Source of the DNA: an uncultured Acidobacteriota bacterium
Lineage (GTDB): Bacteria > Acidobacteriota > Thermoanaerobaculia > Multivoradales > SZUA-115
Assembly (NCBI GenBank): GCA_963805975.1
Contig: CAWDVR010000005.1
Coordinates: forward strand, 544,001 to 608,000
Direction of reading: 5' to 3'
DNA: 64,000 bases
Under the pieces are notes generated by a model. The model made no database searches. It was given only the letters and a program-made list of their open reading frames with translations, and had not been told where the DNA came from. Made by a program: the position numbers and the translations under genes. Of this stretch, positions 48,399 to 55,072 are shown in pieces; position 1 is the stretch's first letter; the number at the start of each line of letters is the position of its first letter.

Positions 48399-48921
48399 GC
48401 GGCAGGCCTTTGAGCACGTCGCGCTTGTCGCGCACTTCCATGCGCGCGGCCACGTAGTCGGCGTGGGAGAAGCCGAGCTCGTTGGCGATCTGGCGCACCT
48501 GGTTCTCTTCGGCGCCGGAGACCGAGTCGTCGGCCGCCGAGACCGCGAACAGGCAGGAGAGGAGACGGCGCCGTTCCTCCGCGGTGGCCACTTCTTTGAA
48601 CTCGCGGGTGACGAGGAAGTTCTCGGTGCCGCCGAAGAGGCGGCTCTGGCTCTTGGCGATTTCCACCACCAGCACCGCCTGCGCCTCGGGCAAGCCGCCC
48701 ACCTCTGTCACCAGCCGCTCCATGATGCGGGTCTCCGGGTCGCTGATCTCGAGGTCGGCGTGCGCCACGCGCGAGAGGAGATAAGCGAAAGCCGCGAGAT
48801 ACCTCGCCCTCTCCGCCGGCAGTGCGTCGAGCTGGCGGACGATCTTGCGCACCGACTCGGTCTCGGCCGTGCCCGTGGTCTCCGCCTCGCGGCCCAGTCC
48901 TAGGAATTTGAGGATCGACAT
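48382..48921 (-). CDS. TerB family protein
   Basis: ATG at 48921 (MSILKFLGL); VAHADLEIS...E and VSAADDSVSGAEE TerB-type motifs. Confidence 0.8.
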   Translation of the reverse strand: MSILKFLGLGREAETTGTAETESVRKIVRQLDALPAERARYLAAFAYLLSRVAHADLEISDPETRIMERLVTEVGGLPEAQAVLVVEIAKSQSRLFGGTENFLVTREFKEVATAEERRRLLSCLFAVSAADDSVSGAEENQVRQIANELGFSHADYVAARMEVRDKRDVLKGLPPTPAS

Positions 48922-49036
48922 CGCTGTTGCCTGGGAGGAATCGAGTATGGCACAGCTCCCCGGCACTCTCCGCCCCACCGTTCGCAGCGCCGCGCGCCAA
49001 CTTTCCGGCTCCGGGGATCTGCGATACCGTCGCGAC

Positions 49037-50890
<1,854 letters not shown>

Positions 50891-50925
50891 TCGGCAGAAA
50901 ACCCATTCGACGGGAGGCTCCCGCC

Positions 50926-51357
50926 ATGTCGCACGACGTTCTTCGGAGGACCCTTCAACTGGCCGCGGTCGCGGCCACCCTCTGGTCTCTCGGGATCTCC
51001 CTCTTCATCGCCTTCGCTCCCAGGGTCCGGGTCGGCTACGAAGCCACGGAGAGCGGTGTCCTGAACGAAGCGGATGCCCTCTACCACGTCGAGACGTATC
51101 GAGAGCGGGGCGCAGGAGACCTCATCGCGCCGGCGATCCCCTTCCTGATGGCCGTCGGGGCCTGCCTCGCTCTCTACCGCGGCCGTCCGGGAGTGGCACT
51201 GGCGAGCTCGATGGCACTGCTGTTGTTCTCGTTTCTTACCGGCTTCTCGATCGGCTCGCGCCTCATCCCTGCGGCGCTCCTGCTCGTCGTGGTCTCACTG
51301 GTCGCTGGCGTCGCTGCCTCACATCGAGAGGTAGCCGTCGTTGACCATGGTCCTTGA
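50926..51357 (+). CDS. Hypothetical membrane protein
   Basis: GGGAGG ribosome-binding site; about four hydrophobic segments. Confidence 0.6.
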   Translation: MSHDVLRRTLQLAAVAATLWSLGISLFIAFAPRVRVGYEATESGVLNEADALYHVETYRERGAGDLIAPAIPFLMAVGACLALYRGRPGVALASSMALLLFSFLTGFSIGSRLIPAALLLVVVSLVAGVAASHREVAVVDHGP

Positions 51358-51365
51358 CCATGGTA
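51341..51365. promoter_or_regulatory. Tandem palindromic operator upstream of vapBC
   Basis: TTGACCATGGT occurs twice with a 13-bp period; the core ACCATGGT is palindromic and ends about 10 nt before the antitoxin start. Confidence 0.7.
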
Positions 51366-51375
51366 CGTTTCTGAC

Positions 51376-51615
51376 GTGGAAAGCCTGGCGATCTCGAAGT
51401 TCAAGGCCACCTGCCTCGCCGTGCTGGAGCGGGTACAGAAGACGGGCCAGCCCGTCCTGGTCACCAAGCGTGGTGTCCCGGTCGCGCAGGTCGTGCCGCC
51501 TCCCACGCCCGCAGTCTCCAAGAACAGCGCTTTTGGAGCCCTTGCGGGAACCGCATGGGAGATCGAGGACATTCTGGAACCCCTTCCGGCGGAAGACTGG
51601 GAAGCGCTGCGTTGA
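51376..51615 (+). CDS. Phd/YefM family antitoxin
   Basis: ISKFKATCLAVLERV...VTKRGVPVAQVVP and FGAL.G...DI.EP...W pattern. Confidence 0.9.
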   Translation: MESLAISKFKATCLAVLERVQKTGQPVLVTKRGVPVAQVVPPPTPAVSKNSAFGALAGTAWEIEDILEPLPAEDWEALR

Positions 51616-52007
51616 CCGGGTATCTGCTGGATACCCACATCTGGTTCTGGTACTTGACCGGCTCGCAGCGGCTTCCGGCCGAGCTCCGGGAGGTCGTTGG
51701 CTCGAGCAGCGACCGATGCTGGCTTTCTCCCATCTCGGTTTGGGAGCTGGGTCTTCTGGCAAGTCGACGGCGAGTGGGAATTGCTGGTGACTATCGAGAC
51801 TGGCTCGATCGAGCCCACCTGGTGCTGCCACTCAAAGAAGCTCATCTCAGCCGAGAGATCGCTTTGAAGAGCATCGAGTTGAACTTGCCTCACCGTGACC
51901 CGGCGGACCACTTCCTCGCCGCAACAGCCCTGGTGTTCGATCTCACCCTGCTGACCGTGGACGACAACCTCACCTCGGCAGCGTGGCTGCCGACGATGTC
52001 CGGTTGA
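51612..52007 (+). CDS. vapC: VapC PIN-domain toxin
   Basis: YLLDTHIW, SPISVWE, HRDPAD, LTVD motifs; TTG overlaps the antitoxin stop. Confidence 0.9.
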   Translation: MTGYLLDTHIWFWYLTGSQRLPAELREVVGSSSDRCWLSPISVWELGLLASRRRVGIAGDYRDWLDRAHLVLPLKEAHLSREIALKSIELNLPHRDPADHFLAATALVFDLTLLTVDDNLTSAAWLPTMSG

Positions 52008-52206
52008 GCTCGCTCTCGCCTTGCGGGTCGCCAGCCCGTGCTCCAGAAGAGCTGAAACACCGCCGTGATATCATCGCTGTGAGCCTCGTCAGGATCTCCG
52101 GCTCACGTCTTCCGCAGATGCTTCGATCCTTCCTCTTCTCTCACGACTTCAGGCAACGAAGTTGCCATCCGCCACGGATCTCACGTTCCACGGCGCAAGA
52201 GCCTGC

Positions 52207-54117
52207 ATGACCTCATACCTCCTCGACACTCGCGTTTGGTTCCTCTACCTCACCAACCCCTCCAAGCTGCCGGCGCAGCTCAAACAAGTCGTCGACGACT
52301 ACCGCGATCGATGCTGGCTGTCGCCGGCGTCGGTGCTGGAGCTCGCGGCGCAGATCGAGCGCGGCCGAGTCCGGCTCGACTCCGATCTCGGCTCCTGGCT
52401 CAAGGCCACGCGCCGGCGCCTGGCGCTCAAGGAGGCCGCGCTGACCACGGAGATCGCGGTGCGCAGCGGCAAGCTGGAGATCGCCGGCGGCGACTCGGTG
52501 GACCGCCTGCTCGCCGCCACCGCGATCGAGCTCGGACTGACTCTGGTGACGCTCGATCGCCACCTGATGACCGTCGCGGGGCTGGCGACGCTCGTCCTCT
52601 CGGAGAGGCCGGTGGAGGCCGTGCCCGAGCCGCCGGAGGCCTTGAATTTGCCGGCCGAATCGCCCGTGCAGCCGGTGTCGGTTGCCGCTCCGGTGGCCAT
52701 CGAGCCACCGCCGGTGGAGCTGGCACCGCCGACTCCCGAGCCCGCGAAGGCCCCGGAGTTTCCCCGCGCCGTGCCGCCTCTCCGGCTGGCCCGGCCGCCG
52801 CGCGAAGTCGACACTCCGCCCGAGCCCACACCGATTCGGCTCCCTGAGCCGGAACGCACGCCGGAGGAGGAAGCGGCCCACACCGCGGCGGACCTGCGAA
52901 GTGTGATCCGCGCCATCCCGCAGCATCCGGTCGCGACCACGCATGAAGATTTCTCTTCCTTGGGGCTCTCGGAGCCCATCCTGCGCTCGGTGGCGCGCAT
53001 CGGCTTCACCCACCCGACGCCGATCCAGGCGGCGGTGATCCCGGCGGCCCTGACCGGCCGCGACATCATCGGCCTCGCGCAGACGGGCTCCGGCAAGACG
53101 GCGGCCTTCTGCCTGCCGCTCGCCGAGCGCCTCACCCACGGCCGCGGAGTGCGCGGCCTGATCCTGTCGCCGACGCGCGAGATCGCGCTCCAGACCCAGG
53201 CCTTTCTCGAGGTCTTCGGCAAGGACCACGACCTCGAGACCGTGTGTCTGATCGGTGGCGTCGCCATGGGGCCGCAGATCCAGGGCCTGCGCGGCGAGCC
53301 GGACATCGTGGTGGCGACCCCCGGGCGCCTGCTCGACCACTTGCGCCGGCGCAACGTGAAGCTCGACCGCCTCGAGGAGCTGGTCTTCGACGAGGCCGAC
53401 CACATGCTGGACCTGGGCTTCATGCCCCAGATCCAGGAGATCCTCGAGTTCCTGCCGCCCAAGCGCCGGACGATGATGTTCTCGGCCACCATGCCCGAGG
53501 CGATCGAGCGGCTGGCCCGCCGCCTGATGGCCGACCCGGTGCGGGTGGACATCCTGCCCCAGGGCCGCGCGGCCGAGGGCATCAGCCACCGGCTCTACCT
53601 GGTGTCGCCGGACGACAAGAAGGCCTGCCTGCTCGCCCTCCTGCACCAGGAGCTGGGCTCGACGCTGGTCTTCATCCGCCGCAAGGTGGACGCCGAGTGG
53701 CTCTGCAAGATCCTCGGCAACGAGGGCCACCCGGTGGAGCGCATCCACTCGGACCTGTCGCAGGGCCAGCGCACGGACGCGTTGCAAGGTTTCCGCGAGG
53801 GCGAGCACCGCATCCTGGTGGCGACCGACATCGCGGCCCGCGGCCTCGACATCCCCCGCATCCAGCACATCGTCAACTTCGACCTGCCCGAGACCGTGGA
53901 GGACTACATCCACCGCGCCGGGCGCACCGCCCGCGGCACGCTGCGCGGCACGGTCTCCTCGATCGCTATCTGGCAGGACAAGGTGATGATCCGGGACATC
54001 GAGGACGCGCTGGGCAAGGAGATCCCGCGCTGCACGCTGCCGGGGGTCGAGCCCTGGCAGGAGATGAAGACCCGCCCCCGCGGCCGGCACCGGCTGCCCA
54101 TGCGCCGCCGGGTCTGA
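52207..54117 (+). CDS. VapC-like PIN domain fused to a DEAD-box RNA helicase
   Basis: N-terminal YLLDT...SVLE...DSVDR...TLD; Pro-rich linker; Q motif (GFTHPTPIQ), AQTGSGKT, PTRE, TPGRL, DEAD, SAT, ARGLD, HRAGRTAR. Confidence 0.88.
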   Translation: MTSYLLDTRVWFLYLTNPSKLPAQLKQVVDDYRDRCWLSPASVLELAAQIERGRVRLDSDLGSWLKATRRRLALKEAALTTEIAVRSGKLEIAGGDSVDRLLAATAIELGLTLVTLDRHLMTVAGLATLVLSERPVEAVPEPPEALNLPAESPVQPVSVAAPVAIEPPPVELAPPTPEPAKAPEFPRAVPPLRLARPPREVDTPPEPTPIRLPEPERTPEEEAAHTAADLRSVIRAIPQHPVATTHEDFSSLGLSEPILRSVARIGFTHPTPIQAAVIPAALTGRDIIGLAQTGSGKTAAFCLPLAERLTHGRGVRGLILSPTREIALQTQAFLEVFGKDHDLETVCLIGGVAMGPQIQGLRGEPDIVVATPGRLLDHLRRRNVKLDRLEELVFDEADHMLDLGFMPQIQEILEFLPPKRRTMMFSATMPEAIERLARRLMADPVRVDILPQGRAAEGISHRLYLVSPDDKKACLLALLHQELGSTLVFIRRKVDAEWLCKILGNEGHPVERIHSDLSQGQRTDALQGFREGEHRILVATDIAARGLDIPRIQHIVNFDLPETVEDYIHRAGRTARGTLRGTVSSIAIWQDKVMIRDIEDALGKEIPRCTLPGVEPWQEMKTRPRGRHRLPMRRRV

Positions 54118-54130
54118 GGCGCGAGGAACC

Positions 54131-54310
54131 ATGCTCGAGCCGGTCGAGGTGGCCTGCCCCTACTGCGGGGAGATCGTCGAGATCACGCTCGAGCCCGGCG
54201 AGGAAGGCTCGTTCGTCCAGGACTGCGAGGTCTGCTGCAATCCCTGGCAGGTCACCGCCCGCCGCGACCGGGACGGCGACTTGGACGTCCGGGTCGAGCG
54301 GGCCCAGTAG
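54131..54310 (+). CDS. CPXCG-motif cysteine-rich small protein (59 aa, absent from the ORF track)
   Basis: GAGG ribosome-binding site; MLEPVEVACPYCGE...QDCEVCCNPW...VERAQ. Confidence 0.85.
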   Translation: MLEPVEVACPYCGEIVEITLEPGEEGSFVQDCEVCCNPWQVTARRDRDGDLDVRVERAQ

Positions 54311-54317
54311 AAATCTT

Positions 54318-54433
54318 CCCCTCACCCTAGCCCTCTCCCCGCGAGCGGGGAGAGGGCTAGGGTGCGGTAGCCTCCGCGGGCGGGTGGTGGCGCCCTCGCC
54401 CCGCGTGAGCGGGGAGAGGGTCGGGGTGAGGGG
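54318..54433. repeat. Pair of inverted REP-like palindromic elements
   Basis: CCCTCACCCTAGCCCTCTCCCCGCgaGCGGGGAGAGGG followed by an inverted copy ending GGGGAGAGGGTCGGGGTGAGGGG, between convergent genes. Confidence 0.8.
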
Positions 54434-55072
54434 CTACCCCCGCAGCCGCACGCCCTTCAGCATCGCCAGGAACTTCTCCCGTTCGGCGCCGAGCGTGGCG
54501 TCCGGCCCCATCACCTTGAAGAACCAGGGCCCCCCCGGCCCTTCCACCACGGCGCCGAACAGGCGTCCGCCCGGCTGCGGCGCGGTCGGCCCCATTCCCA
54601 TCCCCGAAGGCTTGAGGGTGCCGGCGACGTCGACCCAGGTCACCGGAAGGCCATTGGCCTCGAAGCTCTCGCGTTGCGGCGGCGCCGCGGGCTCCACCTG
54701 ACCGATCCAGCGGTCGAGATTGGCTTCCACGCCACCGCCCTGGCCGGGGCCGAAGAAGAACACCGCGAACTCGGCCGTGCCGCCGGTCCCCTGGATCTCG
54801 CCCTGGGCGATCCGCATGCTCGAGGAGACCGGCGTCTCCTGCCAGCCGGCCGGCAGGGTGTAGACGAGCCCGGCCGAGTTGCGATCCGCGGCCGCCATGG
54901 GCGCCGGCTGGCCGTGCGACGAGAGCGGTGCCAGCTCGCCGCCGGGTCCGGGCGCGGCCGAGGGGGCTGCCGTGGCGGCTGGCGCGGCGCCGTGGTCGGG
55001 AGCCTTGCCACCGCACGCGGCGAGCGGGAGGGCGAGAAGGGCGGCGGCAAGAGCGAAGGCGAAGCGAGTCAT
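54434..55072 (-). CDS. Hypothetical lipoprotein
   Basis: LAAC lipobox; PAGW, GGGVEANLDRW..Q, GPWFFK motifs. Confidence 0.75.
   Translation of the reverse strand: MTRFAFALAAALLALPLAACGGKAPDHGAAPAATAAPSAAPGPGGELAPLSSHGQPAPMAAADRNSAGLVYTLPAGWQETPVSSSMRIAQGEIQGTGGTAEFAVFFFGPGQGGGVEANLDRWIGQVEPAAPPQRESFEANGLPVTWVDVAGTLKPSGMGMGPTAPQPGGRLFGAVVEGPGGPWFFKVMGPDATLGAEREKFLAMLKGVRLRG

What the first reader, a model, noticed from the sequence alone, without database searches (positions are those of the whole stretch)
52207..54117. PIN ribonuclease fused to an intact DEAD-box RNA helicase
Seen: one uninterrupted 636-codon ORF holds a VapC-type PIN domain (about 52207-52600) that keeps its acidic residues (LLDT, SVLE, DSVD, TLD), a Pro/Glu-rich linker of about 110 aa, and a complete DEAD-box helicase with every canonical motif. 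Established: bacterial DEAD-box proteins (RhlE, RhlB, CshA, DbpA) normally have short N-termini and recruit nucleases in trans, as in degradosomes, while VapC proteins are stand-alone RNases. I do not know of a described VapC-DEAD fusion. Inference: this could be a self-contained unwind-and-cut RNA enzyme (RNA decay, rRNA/tRNA processing or anti-phage defence), or a helicase whose PIN domain acts as a dimerisation or antitoxin-sensing module.
Basis: partly seen in the sequence, partly recalled or inferred. Interest (0 to 1): 0.85.

Follow-up and report, generated by a model that had tools for sequence, protein, structure and literature searches.

The report
RNA helicase with swappable front domain
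This gene joins a toxin-type ribonuclease domain to an RNA-unwinding enzyme, and in related bacteria five other unrelated domains sit in the same spot, so the front domain likely serves mainly as an interchangeable clamp that pairs two helicases, while its likely RNA-cutting site would be an extra.

Summary
The fusion is real: one 636-codon frame holds a VapC-type PIN, a 104-aa Pro/Glu-rich linker and a DEAD-box helicase with all motifs. It recurs in two other genomes (85% and 67% identical) and in independent contigs. Relatives are labelled Thermoanaerobaculia (Acidobacteriota). The PIN keeps five acidic residues and is under purifying selection, so RNase activity is plausible. The larger finding: the same helicase ortholog carries six unrelated front domains in relatives, each on a similar linker: PIN, PhzF, Phd/YefM, DinB_2, tandem ACT and a ribbon-helix-helix-like (RHH) domain. 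Most orthologs inspected carry none. The tree requires at least three independent origins and six captures. Antitoxin-derived caps keep only their dimer/DNA-binding part, and the RHH ones keep their promoter. Best reading (0.40): a captured self-pairing domain dimerises a helicase that lacks its own dimer domain. Rivals: uncoupled promoter/start capture (0.30) and a PhoH2-like unwind-and-cut RNase (0.25). Dimerisation was not tested: the complex predictor was unavailable. The scan held no look-alike of this gene, only notes on other DEAD-box fusions. Ten paper searches showed no description.

The parts
52207..54117 (+). Fused gene, 636 aa: PIN - disordered linker - DEAD-box helicase - basic tail
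   Evidence: intact in G001 and G004
52207..52599 (+). VapC-type PIN domain. Keeps D7, E45, D96, D99, D117; lacks H9, W13, L49, P97 typical of stand-alone relatives
   Evidence: Pfam PF01850; AlphaFold2 pLDDT 96 and Foldseek match to Shigella VapC, TM 0.73; conservation against 131 stand-alone proteins
52600..52911 (+). Pro/Glu/Ala-rich low-complexity linker, 104 aa, inferred from composition to be disordered
   Evidence: composition; 52% identity to G001
52903..52905 (+). In-frame GTG near where unfused orthologs start; a possible internal start, untested
   Evidence: unfused relatives start 5 residues before IPQ in 53 of 82; here a GTG lies 4 codons before it
52912..52932 (+). Subfamily signature (AIPQHPV) just before the helicase Q motif; marks the N-terminus of unfused orthologs
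53017..53511 (+). DEAD domain (RecA1) with motifs I, Ia, Ib, II, III
   Evidence: PF00270, 159.8 bits; motifs
53617..53934 (+). Helicase_C domain (RecA2) with motifs IV, V, VI
   Evidence: PF00271, 102.9 bits
54040..54114 (+). Short basic C-terminal tail (8 Lys/Arg, 2 Asp/Glu in 25 aa); no Pfam domain after Helicase_C
51376..51615 (+). Phd/YefM antitoxin of an upstream vapBC-type operon (context; present in G000 and G001, absent beside the G004 fusion)
   Evidence: PF02604 32.5 bits and TIGR01552; synteny
51612..52007 (+). Stand-alone VapC, 47% identical to the fused PIN and its closest paralog in the genome (context)
51343..51365 (.). One perfect and one near-perfect 10-base palindrome upstream of phd, a likely operator of the toxin-antitoxin operon
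   Evidence: read from the sequence; function inferred
48845..50890 (+). ABC exporter gene, the conserved upstream landmark of the locus
54131..54310 (+). Small CPXCG cysteine-rich protein, the conserved downstream neighbour in G000, G001, G002, G003 and G004
   Evidence: PF14255

Best explanation
The gene encodes a PIN domain joined by a Pro/Glu-rich linker to a DEAD-box helicase with intact motifs, and the PIN likely works first as a self-pairing cap that would hold two helicase cores together on flexible tethers, a job that five other captured domains likely do in relatives. Inferred steps: (1) a gene lying upstream of the helicase was captured in frame, and the helicase's own start codon was usually lost, making the fusion obligatory; (2) the cap homo-oligomerises as its parent family does; (3) the tethered dimer raises RNA avidity and unwinding, and with the disordered linker and basic tail may promote condensates; (4) in this member the PIN keeps its metal-binding carboxylates and probably some RNase activity, re-tuned and no longer acting as a toxin, which would clip RNA held nearby but is not why the slot exists.
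For: Same ortholog, six unrelated caps: PIN (G000, G001, G004), PhzF (G002, G003), Phd/YefM (G005, G007, P0011, P0056, P0066), DinB_2 (P0009), tandem ACT, and FitA-like RHH. All 7 family genomes that hold the ortholog (7 of 8) are capped. ACT is in 20 of 23 loci of family f6, with the other 3 cut by contig ends. An RHH-like cap is in 10 of 10 listed genomes of genus g86. PIN and PhzF occupy the same syntenic slot between the ABC exporter and the CPXCG gene. All capped rows as one clade is rejected (p-AU 7e-63). Phd and RHH caps keep only the first ~45 residues and lack the tail that the stand-alone antitoxins carry. All 26 linkers measured are low-complexity, Pro- and/or acid-rich, 59-306 aa. 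Positions matching the VapC30 dimer interface (PMC4551927, rough linear mapping) stay hydrophobic in the fused PINs at 41, 43, 44, 79, 84, 85, 98 and 101. [quoted passage not shown]
Against: Dimerisation of this PIN was not tested (complex predictor unavailable). That RHH, Phd, PhzF, DinB_2 and ACT caps are homo-oligomers is recalled, not from a call; the closest ACT structure (1zhv) lists one chain. Homo-oligomers are common among bacterial proteins (recalled), so six of six is only moderately unlikely by chance. Most orthologs inspected have no cap: 35 of the 121 proteins read have a long N-terminus. A pure clamp does not need catalytic residues, yet the PIN keeps all five acids over about 1.3 changes per site and both PhzF caps keep the residues aligned to PhzF's catalytic motifs. 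P97, at an interface-equivalent position, is lost, and position 48 is Arg in G004. For CshA the monomeric core bound RNA better than the dimeric one (PMC11850223). RHH caps also bring a promoter, which explains them without dimerisation.
Confidence: 0.4

Rival explanations
1. Uncoupled capture of expression signals. The helicase tolerates anything on its N-terminus; upstream genes, often mobile toxin-antitoxin parts, fused and now supply promoter, operator and start codon. Each domain does its own job or autoregulates the gene, with no mechanistic link to unwinding.
For: Six of the ten RHH-capped genes read keep a promoter region closely matching that of a stand-alone RHH-VapC operon in G000, with repeats in the spacer, and the other four keep a looser version. 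Phd-capped genes have direct repeats just upstream. Three of six caps derive from toxin-antitoxin modules, and a vapBC pair has inserted at this very spot in G000 and G001. An ATG lies in the last 12 codons before the core in only 3 of 26 capped genes. The PIN and PhzF caps keep catalytic residues.
Against: Caps are fixed across a whole family (20 of 20 readable f6 loci) and genus (10 of 10) with no reversion seen. The other two DEAD-box genes of G000 start right at the core. Long Pro/acid-rich linkers arose in each of at least three independent lineages.
Confidence: 0.3
2. A PhoH2-like unwind-and-cut ribonuclease: the helicase opens a duplex and the tethered PIN cleaves it, and this coupling is what selection keeps in the PIN-bearing lineage, whatever other lineages do.
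For: D7, E45, D96, D99 and D117 are kept in all 3 fused PINs, although G000 and G004 are only 39-40% identical there. dN/dS is 0.24 for the PIN between G000 and G001, and codon use is host-like (GC3 0.91 against 0.73 for the upstream VapC). The same four family-typical residues (H9, W13, L49, P97) are replaced in all three; only 2 of 131 stand-alone relatives lack H9, W13 and P97 together, suggesting a re-tuned site. PhoH2 is a described PIN-RNA-helicase fusion with both activities (PMC7390352).
Against: Sister genera fill the same slot with non-nucleases. The linker varies from 79 to 116 aa among the three and is poorly conserved. The genome already has two RNase E/G genes and RNase Y. G004 has no adjacent antitoxin, so a fully active VapC would need other control. 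The lost residues may equally mean a weakened enzyme. dN/dS against G004 is 0.64-0.69, though synonymous sites are probably saturated. No further PIN-helicase fusion among 400 phylum genomes or among the 150 best 50%-cluster representatives, the longest being 245 aa.
Confidence: 0.25
3. The cell makes mainly a plain helicase from an internal start, or the fusion is an assembly artefact.
For: An in-frame GTG lies at 52903, and G001 has GTG and ATG at the matching place. Databases hold orthologs called from internal starts (P0005; possibly P0004). Own-sample reads were unavailable.
Against: Open frame in three genomes and in further contigs; purifying selection on the PIN; G004 has no start codon in the last 12 codons before the core.
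Confidence: 0.05

Closest known systems
PhoH2 (PIN-PhoH) of mycobacteria and others; PMC7390352, passages read
   Same: An N-terminal PIN RNase domain fused to an ATP-dependent RNA helicase, with a small antitoxin-like gene upstream in some members.
   Different: PhoH is a hexameric ring helicase and the fusion is widespread. Here the motor is a two-RecA DEAD-box core, the linker is long and variable, the PIN version was found in three genomes, and the PIN is replaced by non-nucleases in sister genera.
Dimeric DEAD-box helicases Hera, CsdA, CshA; PMC11850223, passages read
   Same: The inferred working state: two helicase cores held together by an accessory domain.
   Different: They use one homologous C-terminal dimerisation domain plus an RNA-binding domain. 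This ortholog has no C-terminal Pfam domain and falls far below the NCBIfam cut-offs (CshA 365 of 646 bits); its cap is N-terminal, borrowed and variable.
RhlE-like helicases and type II RhlB with disordered extensions; PMC11260450 (passages), bioRxiv 10.64898/2026.03.23.713837 (abstract and outline)
   Same: DEAD-box core with a disordered extension; relatives are annotated RhlE by JGI; such extensions boost unwinding and phase separation.
   Different: No folded cap is described in what I read of these papers; the RhlE model cut-off is not met (354 of 743 bits).
VapBC toxin-antitoxin systems (Shigella VapC 3tnd; VapC30, PMC4551927 passages)
   Same: PIN fold, acidic active-site residues, hydrophobic interface-equivalent positions; a canonical phd-vapC pair lies just upstream in G000 and G001.
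   Different: Fused to a conserved housekeeping-type helicase, family-typical residues changed, no adjacent antitoxin in G004.
G3BP1 stress-granule scaffold (analogy only); PMC13157106 and bioRxiv 10.1101/2023.06.29.546885, passages read
   Same: Order of parts: folded dimer domain, acidic disordered region, RNA-binding module, basic tail.
   Different: Eukaryotic, no homology, RRM instead of a helicase. The linker is strongly acidic in the ACT clade and some others but only mildly so in this protein. That GST can replace the G3BP1 dimer domain is recalled; the paper was not held.

Membership tests
DEAD-box RNA helicases | Two RecA domains with motifs Q, I, Ia, Ib, II (DEAD), III, IV, V, VI | tested here: met
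DEAD-box RNA helicases | RNA-stimulated ATPase and duplex unwinding | not testable with these tools
   needs biochemistry
Named subfamilies CshA, RhlE, DbpA, CsdA, SrmB, RhlB | NCBIfam equivalog cut-off | tested here: not met
   best 365.5 bits against 646 (CshA) and 353.8 against 743 (RhlE)
VapC-like PIN domains | PIN fold | tested here: met
   Pfam 46.7 bits over cut-off 23.6; pLDDT 96 model matches VapC structures, TM 0.71-0.74
VapC-like PIN domains | 4-5 acidic active-site residues with Ser/Thr (PMC5499597) | tested here: met
   D7, T8, S42, E45, D96, D99, T115, D117 in all three fusions; D7, E45 and D99 align with Shigella VapC D7, E42 and D98 (read from the alignments)
VapC-like PIN domains | Homodimer | tested here: inconclusive
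   interface-equivalent positions mostly hydrophobic by rough mapping; complex prediction unavailable
VapBC toxin-antitoxin toxin | Stand-alone toxin of about 130 aa directly behind its antitoxin | tested here: not met
   fused to a helicase; the upstream phd pairs with its own vapC; no antitoxin next to the G004 fusion
PhoH2 | PhoH-type helicase domain | tested here: not met
   Pfam finds DEAD and Helicase_C, no PhoH
PhoH2 (works-like) | Coupled ATP-dependent unwinding and RNase activity | not testable with these tools
   needs assay
Hera/CsdA/CshA dimeric helicases | C-terminal dimerisation domain and RNA-binding domain | tested here: not met
   protein ends 60 residues after Helicase_C with a basic tail; no further Pfam domain
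Known anti-phage systems (PADLOC) | Specific model match and partner genes | tested here: not met
   only weak generic helicase matches (best 65.7 bits); none for four neighbouring proteins

The most novel reading that the evidence does not exclude
One Acidobacteriota DEAD-box lineage has run a natural domain-swap experiment at least six times, bolting unrelated self-pairing domains onto a disordered tether to build a dimeric, G3BP1-like RNA-condensate scaffold with a helicase motor. The PIN-capped version adds a domesticated toxin RNase, giving a one-chain unwind-and-cut enzyme of the DEAD-box class.
Probability: 0.25. Interest if true: 0.85.

Novelty: new variant of a known kind. Interest (0 to 1): 0.63.

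Why it matters
Whether and why DEAD-box helicases gain from working as dimers is unsettled (Hera and CshA data disagree in part), and the usual test is an artificial dimer tag. Here nature supplies matched orthologs, 60-93% identical in the core, with no cap or with six unrelated caps, so valency, disorder and cap chemistry can be separated directly. It also shows toxin-antitoxin parts (toxin, Phd, RHH) being repeatedly domesticated onto one RNA-metabolism gene. If the PIN is active and coupled, it is a DEAD-box counterpart of PhoH2. A 563-genome survey found about 50 residues before the core on average and DbpA-RBD as the only significant C-terminal domain (PMC3093544, section 15), so folded N-terminal caps depart from the described pattern.

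Tried and rejected
Own-sample raw reads and expression: no RNA holder listed and all runs are contigs, so no evidence either way. Full-length AlphaFold2 without an alignment gave pLDDT 38 and was discarded. A metagenome scan with the fused-PIN alignment found no relative among 599 pattern matches. Single-sequence search of the PIN against PDB sequences was blank; the profile search worked. No sigma-70 consensus promoter was found in 50800-54600. The antitoxin was first read in a wrong frame; those rows are void and were redone at 51376. Long open frames of many orthologs outside f1, f6 and g86 proved to be GC-rich read-throughs upstream of a normal start, not caps. Duplication of the adjacent vapC as the source of the cap is neither shown nor rejected (p-AU 0.32); the neighbour has less host-like codons and is absent in G004. 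Compensation for missing decay RNases was rejected. Anti-phage defence was rejected for lack of support. The ESM Atlas with homolog P0003 returned only plain DEAD-box clusters. Two papers were not held. Look-ups of earlier scan findings by sequence and by place were blank.

Full report
Observation. Window 52207-54117 (+) is one frame of 636 codons. Pfam places PIN at residues 4-124, DEAD at 271-435 and Helicase_C at 471-576, all over their cut-offs, and every canonical helicase motif is present. The linker between the PIN and the subfamily signature AIPQHPV is 104 aa, 27% Pro and 17% acidic. The protein ends in a short basic tail with no further domain. The window lies in a 5.36-Mb, six-contig genome; close relatives are labelled Thermoanaerobaculia, Acidobacteriota.

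Is it real? Among 41 genomes searched (own plus 40 relatives), three match along the whole length: G000, G001 (85%) and G004 (67%, another genus), each with an open frame. A Logan protein (P0003) and metagenome contig L096 repeat it. Two X4 contigs bridge PIN and helicase with in-frame length changes in the linker. Between G000 and G001 the PIN has dN/dS 0.24, the helicase 0.13 and the linker 0.39; the fused PIN has host-like codons (GC3 0.91) unlike the upstream stand-alone vapC (0.73). Against G004 the ratios are higher (PIN 0.64-0.69, helicase 0.28-0.32), probably from saturation. Own-sample reads and RNA data were not available. The PIN version is rare: no other long PIN frame among 400 phylum genomes, none among the 150 best 50%-cluster representatives, and a search from the G004 PIN returned only its own truncated call.

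The PIN. With an alignment of 118 sequences it folds confidently (pLDDT 96) and matches VapC structures. Against 131 stand-alone relatives of 120-150 aa (of the 150 returned), 23 columns are at least 80% conserved. All three fused PINs keep D7, E45, D96, D99 and D117, and all three lack H9, W13, L49 and P97; only 2 of 131 stand-alone proteins lack H9, W13 and P97 together, while 119 of 131 keep all five acids. The three form one unstarred clade (88/58) with a path of about 1.3 changes per site between G000 and G004 (31 rows). So the metal site appears to be kept while its surroundings changed once after fusion. Upstream in G000 and G001 lies an ordinary phd-vapC pair; its VapC is 47% identical to the cap. 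G004 has no such pair next to the fusion, and its only other match to that VapC is 36% identical.

The wider pattern. The helicase is a conserved ortholog, almost always single-copy, found at E <= 1e-125 in 260 of 300 genomes of the order and 186 of 401 sampled in the class (that tally includes two unpublished genomes on which nothing else rests). Most inspected members start about five residues before IPQ (53 of 82 short database proteins). But all 7 family members with the gene carry a cap: PIN in 3, PhzF in 2, Phd/YefM in 2. Database proteins add DinB_2 (P0009) and more Phd. In family f6, 20 of 23 loci carry a tandem ACT domain related to Atu0741 and CASTOR1 (9 by Pfam, 11 by a profile built from those 9; 3 cut by contig ends). 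In genus g86, 10 of 10 listed genomes carry an RHH-like cap; 7 of 10 tested sequences hit PF22513, all under its cut-off, and one is 50% identical over 42 aa to a stand-alone protein that precedes a PIN toxin in G000. I fetched 40 regions chosen for long open frames; 111 order matches were not listed and not inspected. PIN and PhzF versions sit in the same slot between an ABC exporter and a CPXCG gene. The other two DEAD-box genes of G000 have no cap.

History. In a 79-row tree of helicase cores, RHH (100), Phd (100), PhzF (98) and ACT with the truncated G022 (99) are starred clades; PIN with the short database protein P0004 has 90, unstarred; uncapped rows lie between them. On 40 of these rows, one clade of all capped proteins is rejected (p-AU 7e-63), but one clade of the family's capped proteins is not (0.43). 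Hence at least three independent origins of capping and six captures; within the family this may be one fusion followed by swaps. An ATG remains in the last 12 codons before the core in 3 of 26 capped genes and any start codon in 12 of 26; the window has a GTG at 52903.

What the caps share. They share no chemistry. Recalled, not from a call: RHH, Phd, PhzF, DinB_2 and CASTOR-type ACT proteins are homo-oligomers; VapC homodimers are documented (PMC4551927, passages). Phd and RHH caps are trimmed to about 45 residues, the dimer and DNA-binding part. Six of ten RHH-capped genes keep a promoter region closely matching that of the stand-alone RHH-VapC operon. The PIN and PhzF caps keep catalytic-looking residues (residue roles for PhzF recalled). 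All 26 linkers are low-complexity, 59-306 aa.

Mechanism. I favour a clamp (0.40): a helicase without a dimer domain gains one on a flexible tether, as Hera gains 4-fold in unwinding from its second core (PMC11850223), possibly with condensate behaviour as for RhlE and type II RhlB extensions. Against it: dimerisation is untested, homo-oligomers are common, most orthologs manage without, catalytic residues are kept, and CshA data point the other way for RNA affinity. Uncoupled promoter and start capture (0.30) explains the RHH promoter, the toxin-antitoxin bias and the intact enzymes, but less well the fixation across whole clades. A PhoH2-like unwind-and-cut RNase (0.25) best explains the kept acids but not the non-nuclease caps; the genome has two RNase E/G genes and RNase Y. 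These readings can overlap.

Literature. Ten full-text searches showed no PIN-DEAD-box fusion and no account of this cap series in their listings; one search returned no paper. Seen: passages of PMC5499597 (no occurrence of 'DEAD'), PMC7390352, PMC11850223, PMC11260450, PMC13157106, PMC4551927 and bioRxiv 10.1101/2023.06.29.546885; passages and section 15 of PMC3093544; abstract and outline of bioRxiv 10.64898/2026.03.23.713837. Supplements were not read; those of PMC3093544 and PMC5499597 list domain architectures and could bear on novelty. Most subscription papers are not in the library. Earlier scan notes hold other DEAD-box fusions (cold-shock domain, zinc ribbon), unchecked here, and no look-alike of this gene.

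Verdict. Observation confirmed; interpretation partly supported. A new variant of known kinds (PIN-RNA-helicase fusion; DEAD-box proteins with accessory domains), made more interesting by the repeated swapping of the cap. Interest 0.63.

Noticed in passing
G002, locus L024:9503-11349: An archease gene and an RtcB RNA ligase gene lie directly upstream of the PhzF-capped helicase, inserted after the ABC exporter; an RNA-repair context seen in only this genome of the five read.
   Followed up: partly
window 52021-52096: A contig of run X1 has 666 other letters in place of 74 between vapC and the fused gene, so this spacer takes insertions.
   Followed up: no
G000 contig C2, about 306700-307420 (-): Stand-alone RHH-VapC operon whose promoter region matches that of RHH-capped helicases in genus g86.
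   Followed up: partly
window 50926-51357 (+): A 143-aa hydrophobic ORF with no Pfam match between the ABC exporter and phd; no such ORF was called at this place in G001.
   Followed up: no
   Followed up: no
G276 (L090, L091): Two RHH-capped copies of the helicase in one genome; contamination is 5%, so one may be foreign.
   Followed up: no
G065, locus L076: The linker of this ACT-capped member is 75% Asp/Glu over 105 aa, the most acidic of 26.
   Followed up: no
protein P0035: An ortholog with a basic, Arg/Gly-rich N-terminal extension and no folded cap, nested in the window's clade.
   Followed up: no
window 54131-54310 (+): The CPXCG cysteine-rich gene follows the helicase in five family genomes regardless of cap and may be a functional partner.
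   Followed up: partly
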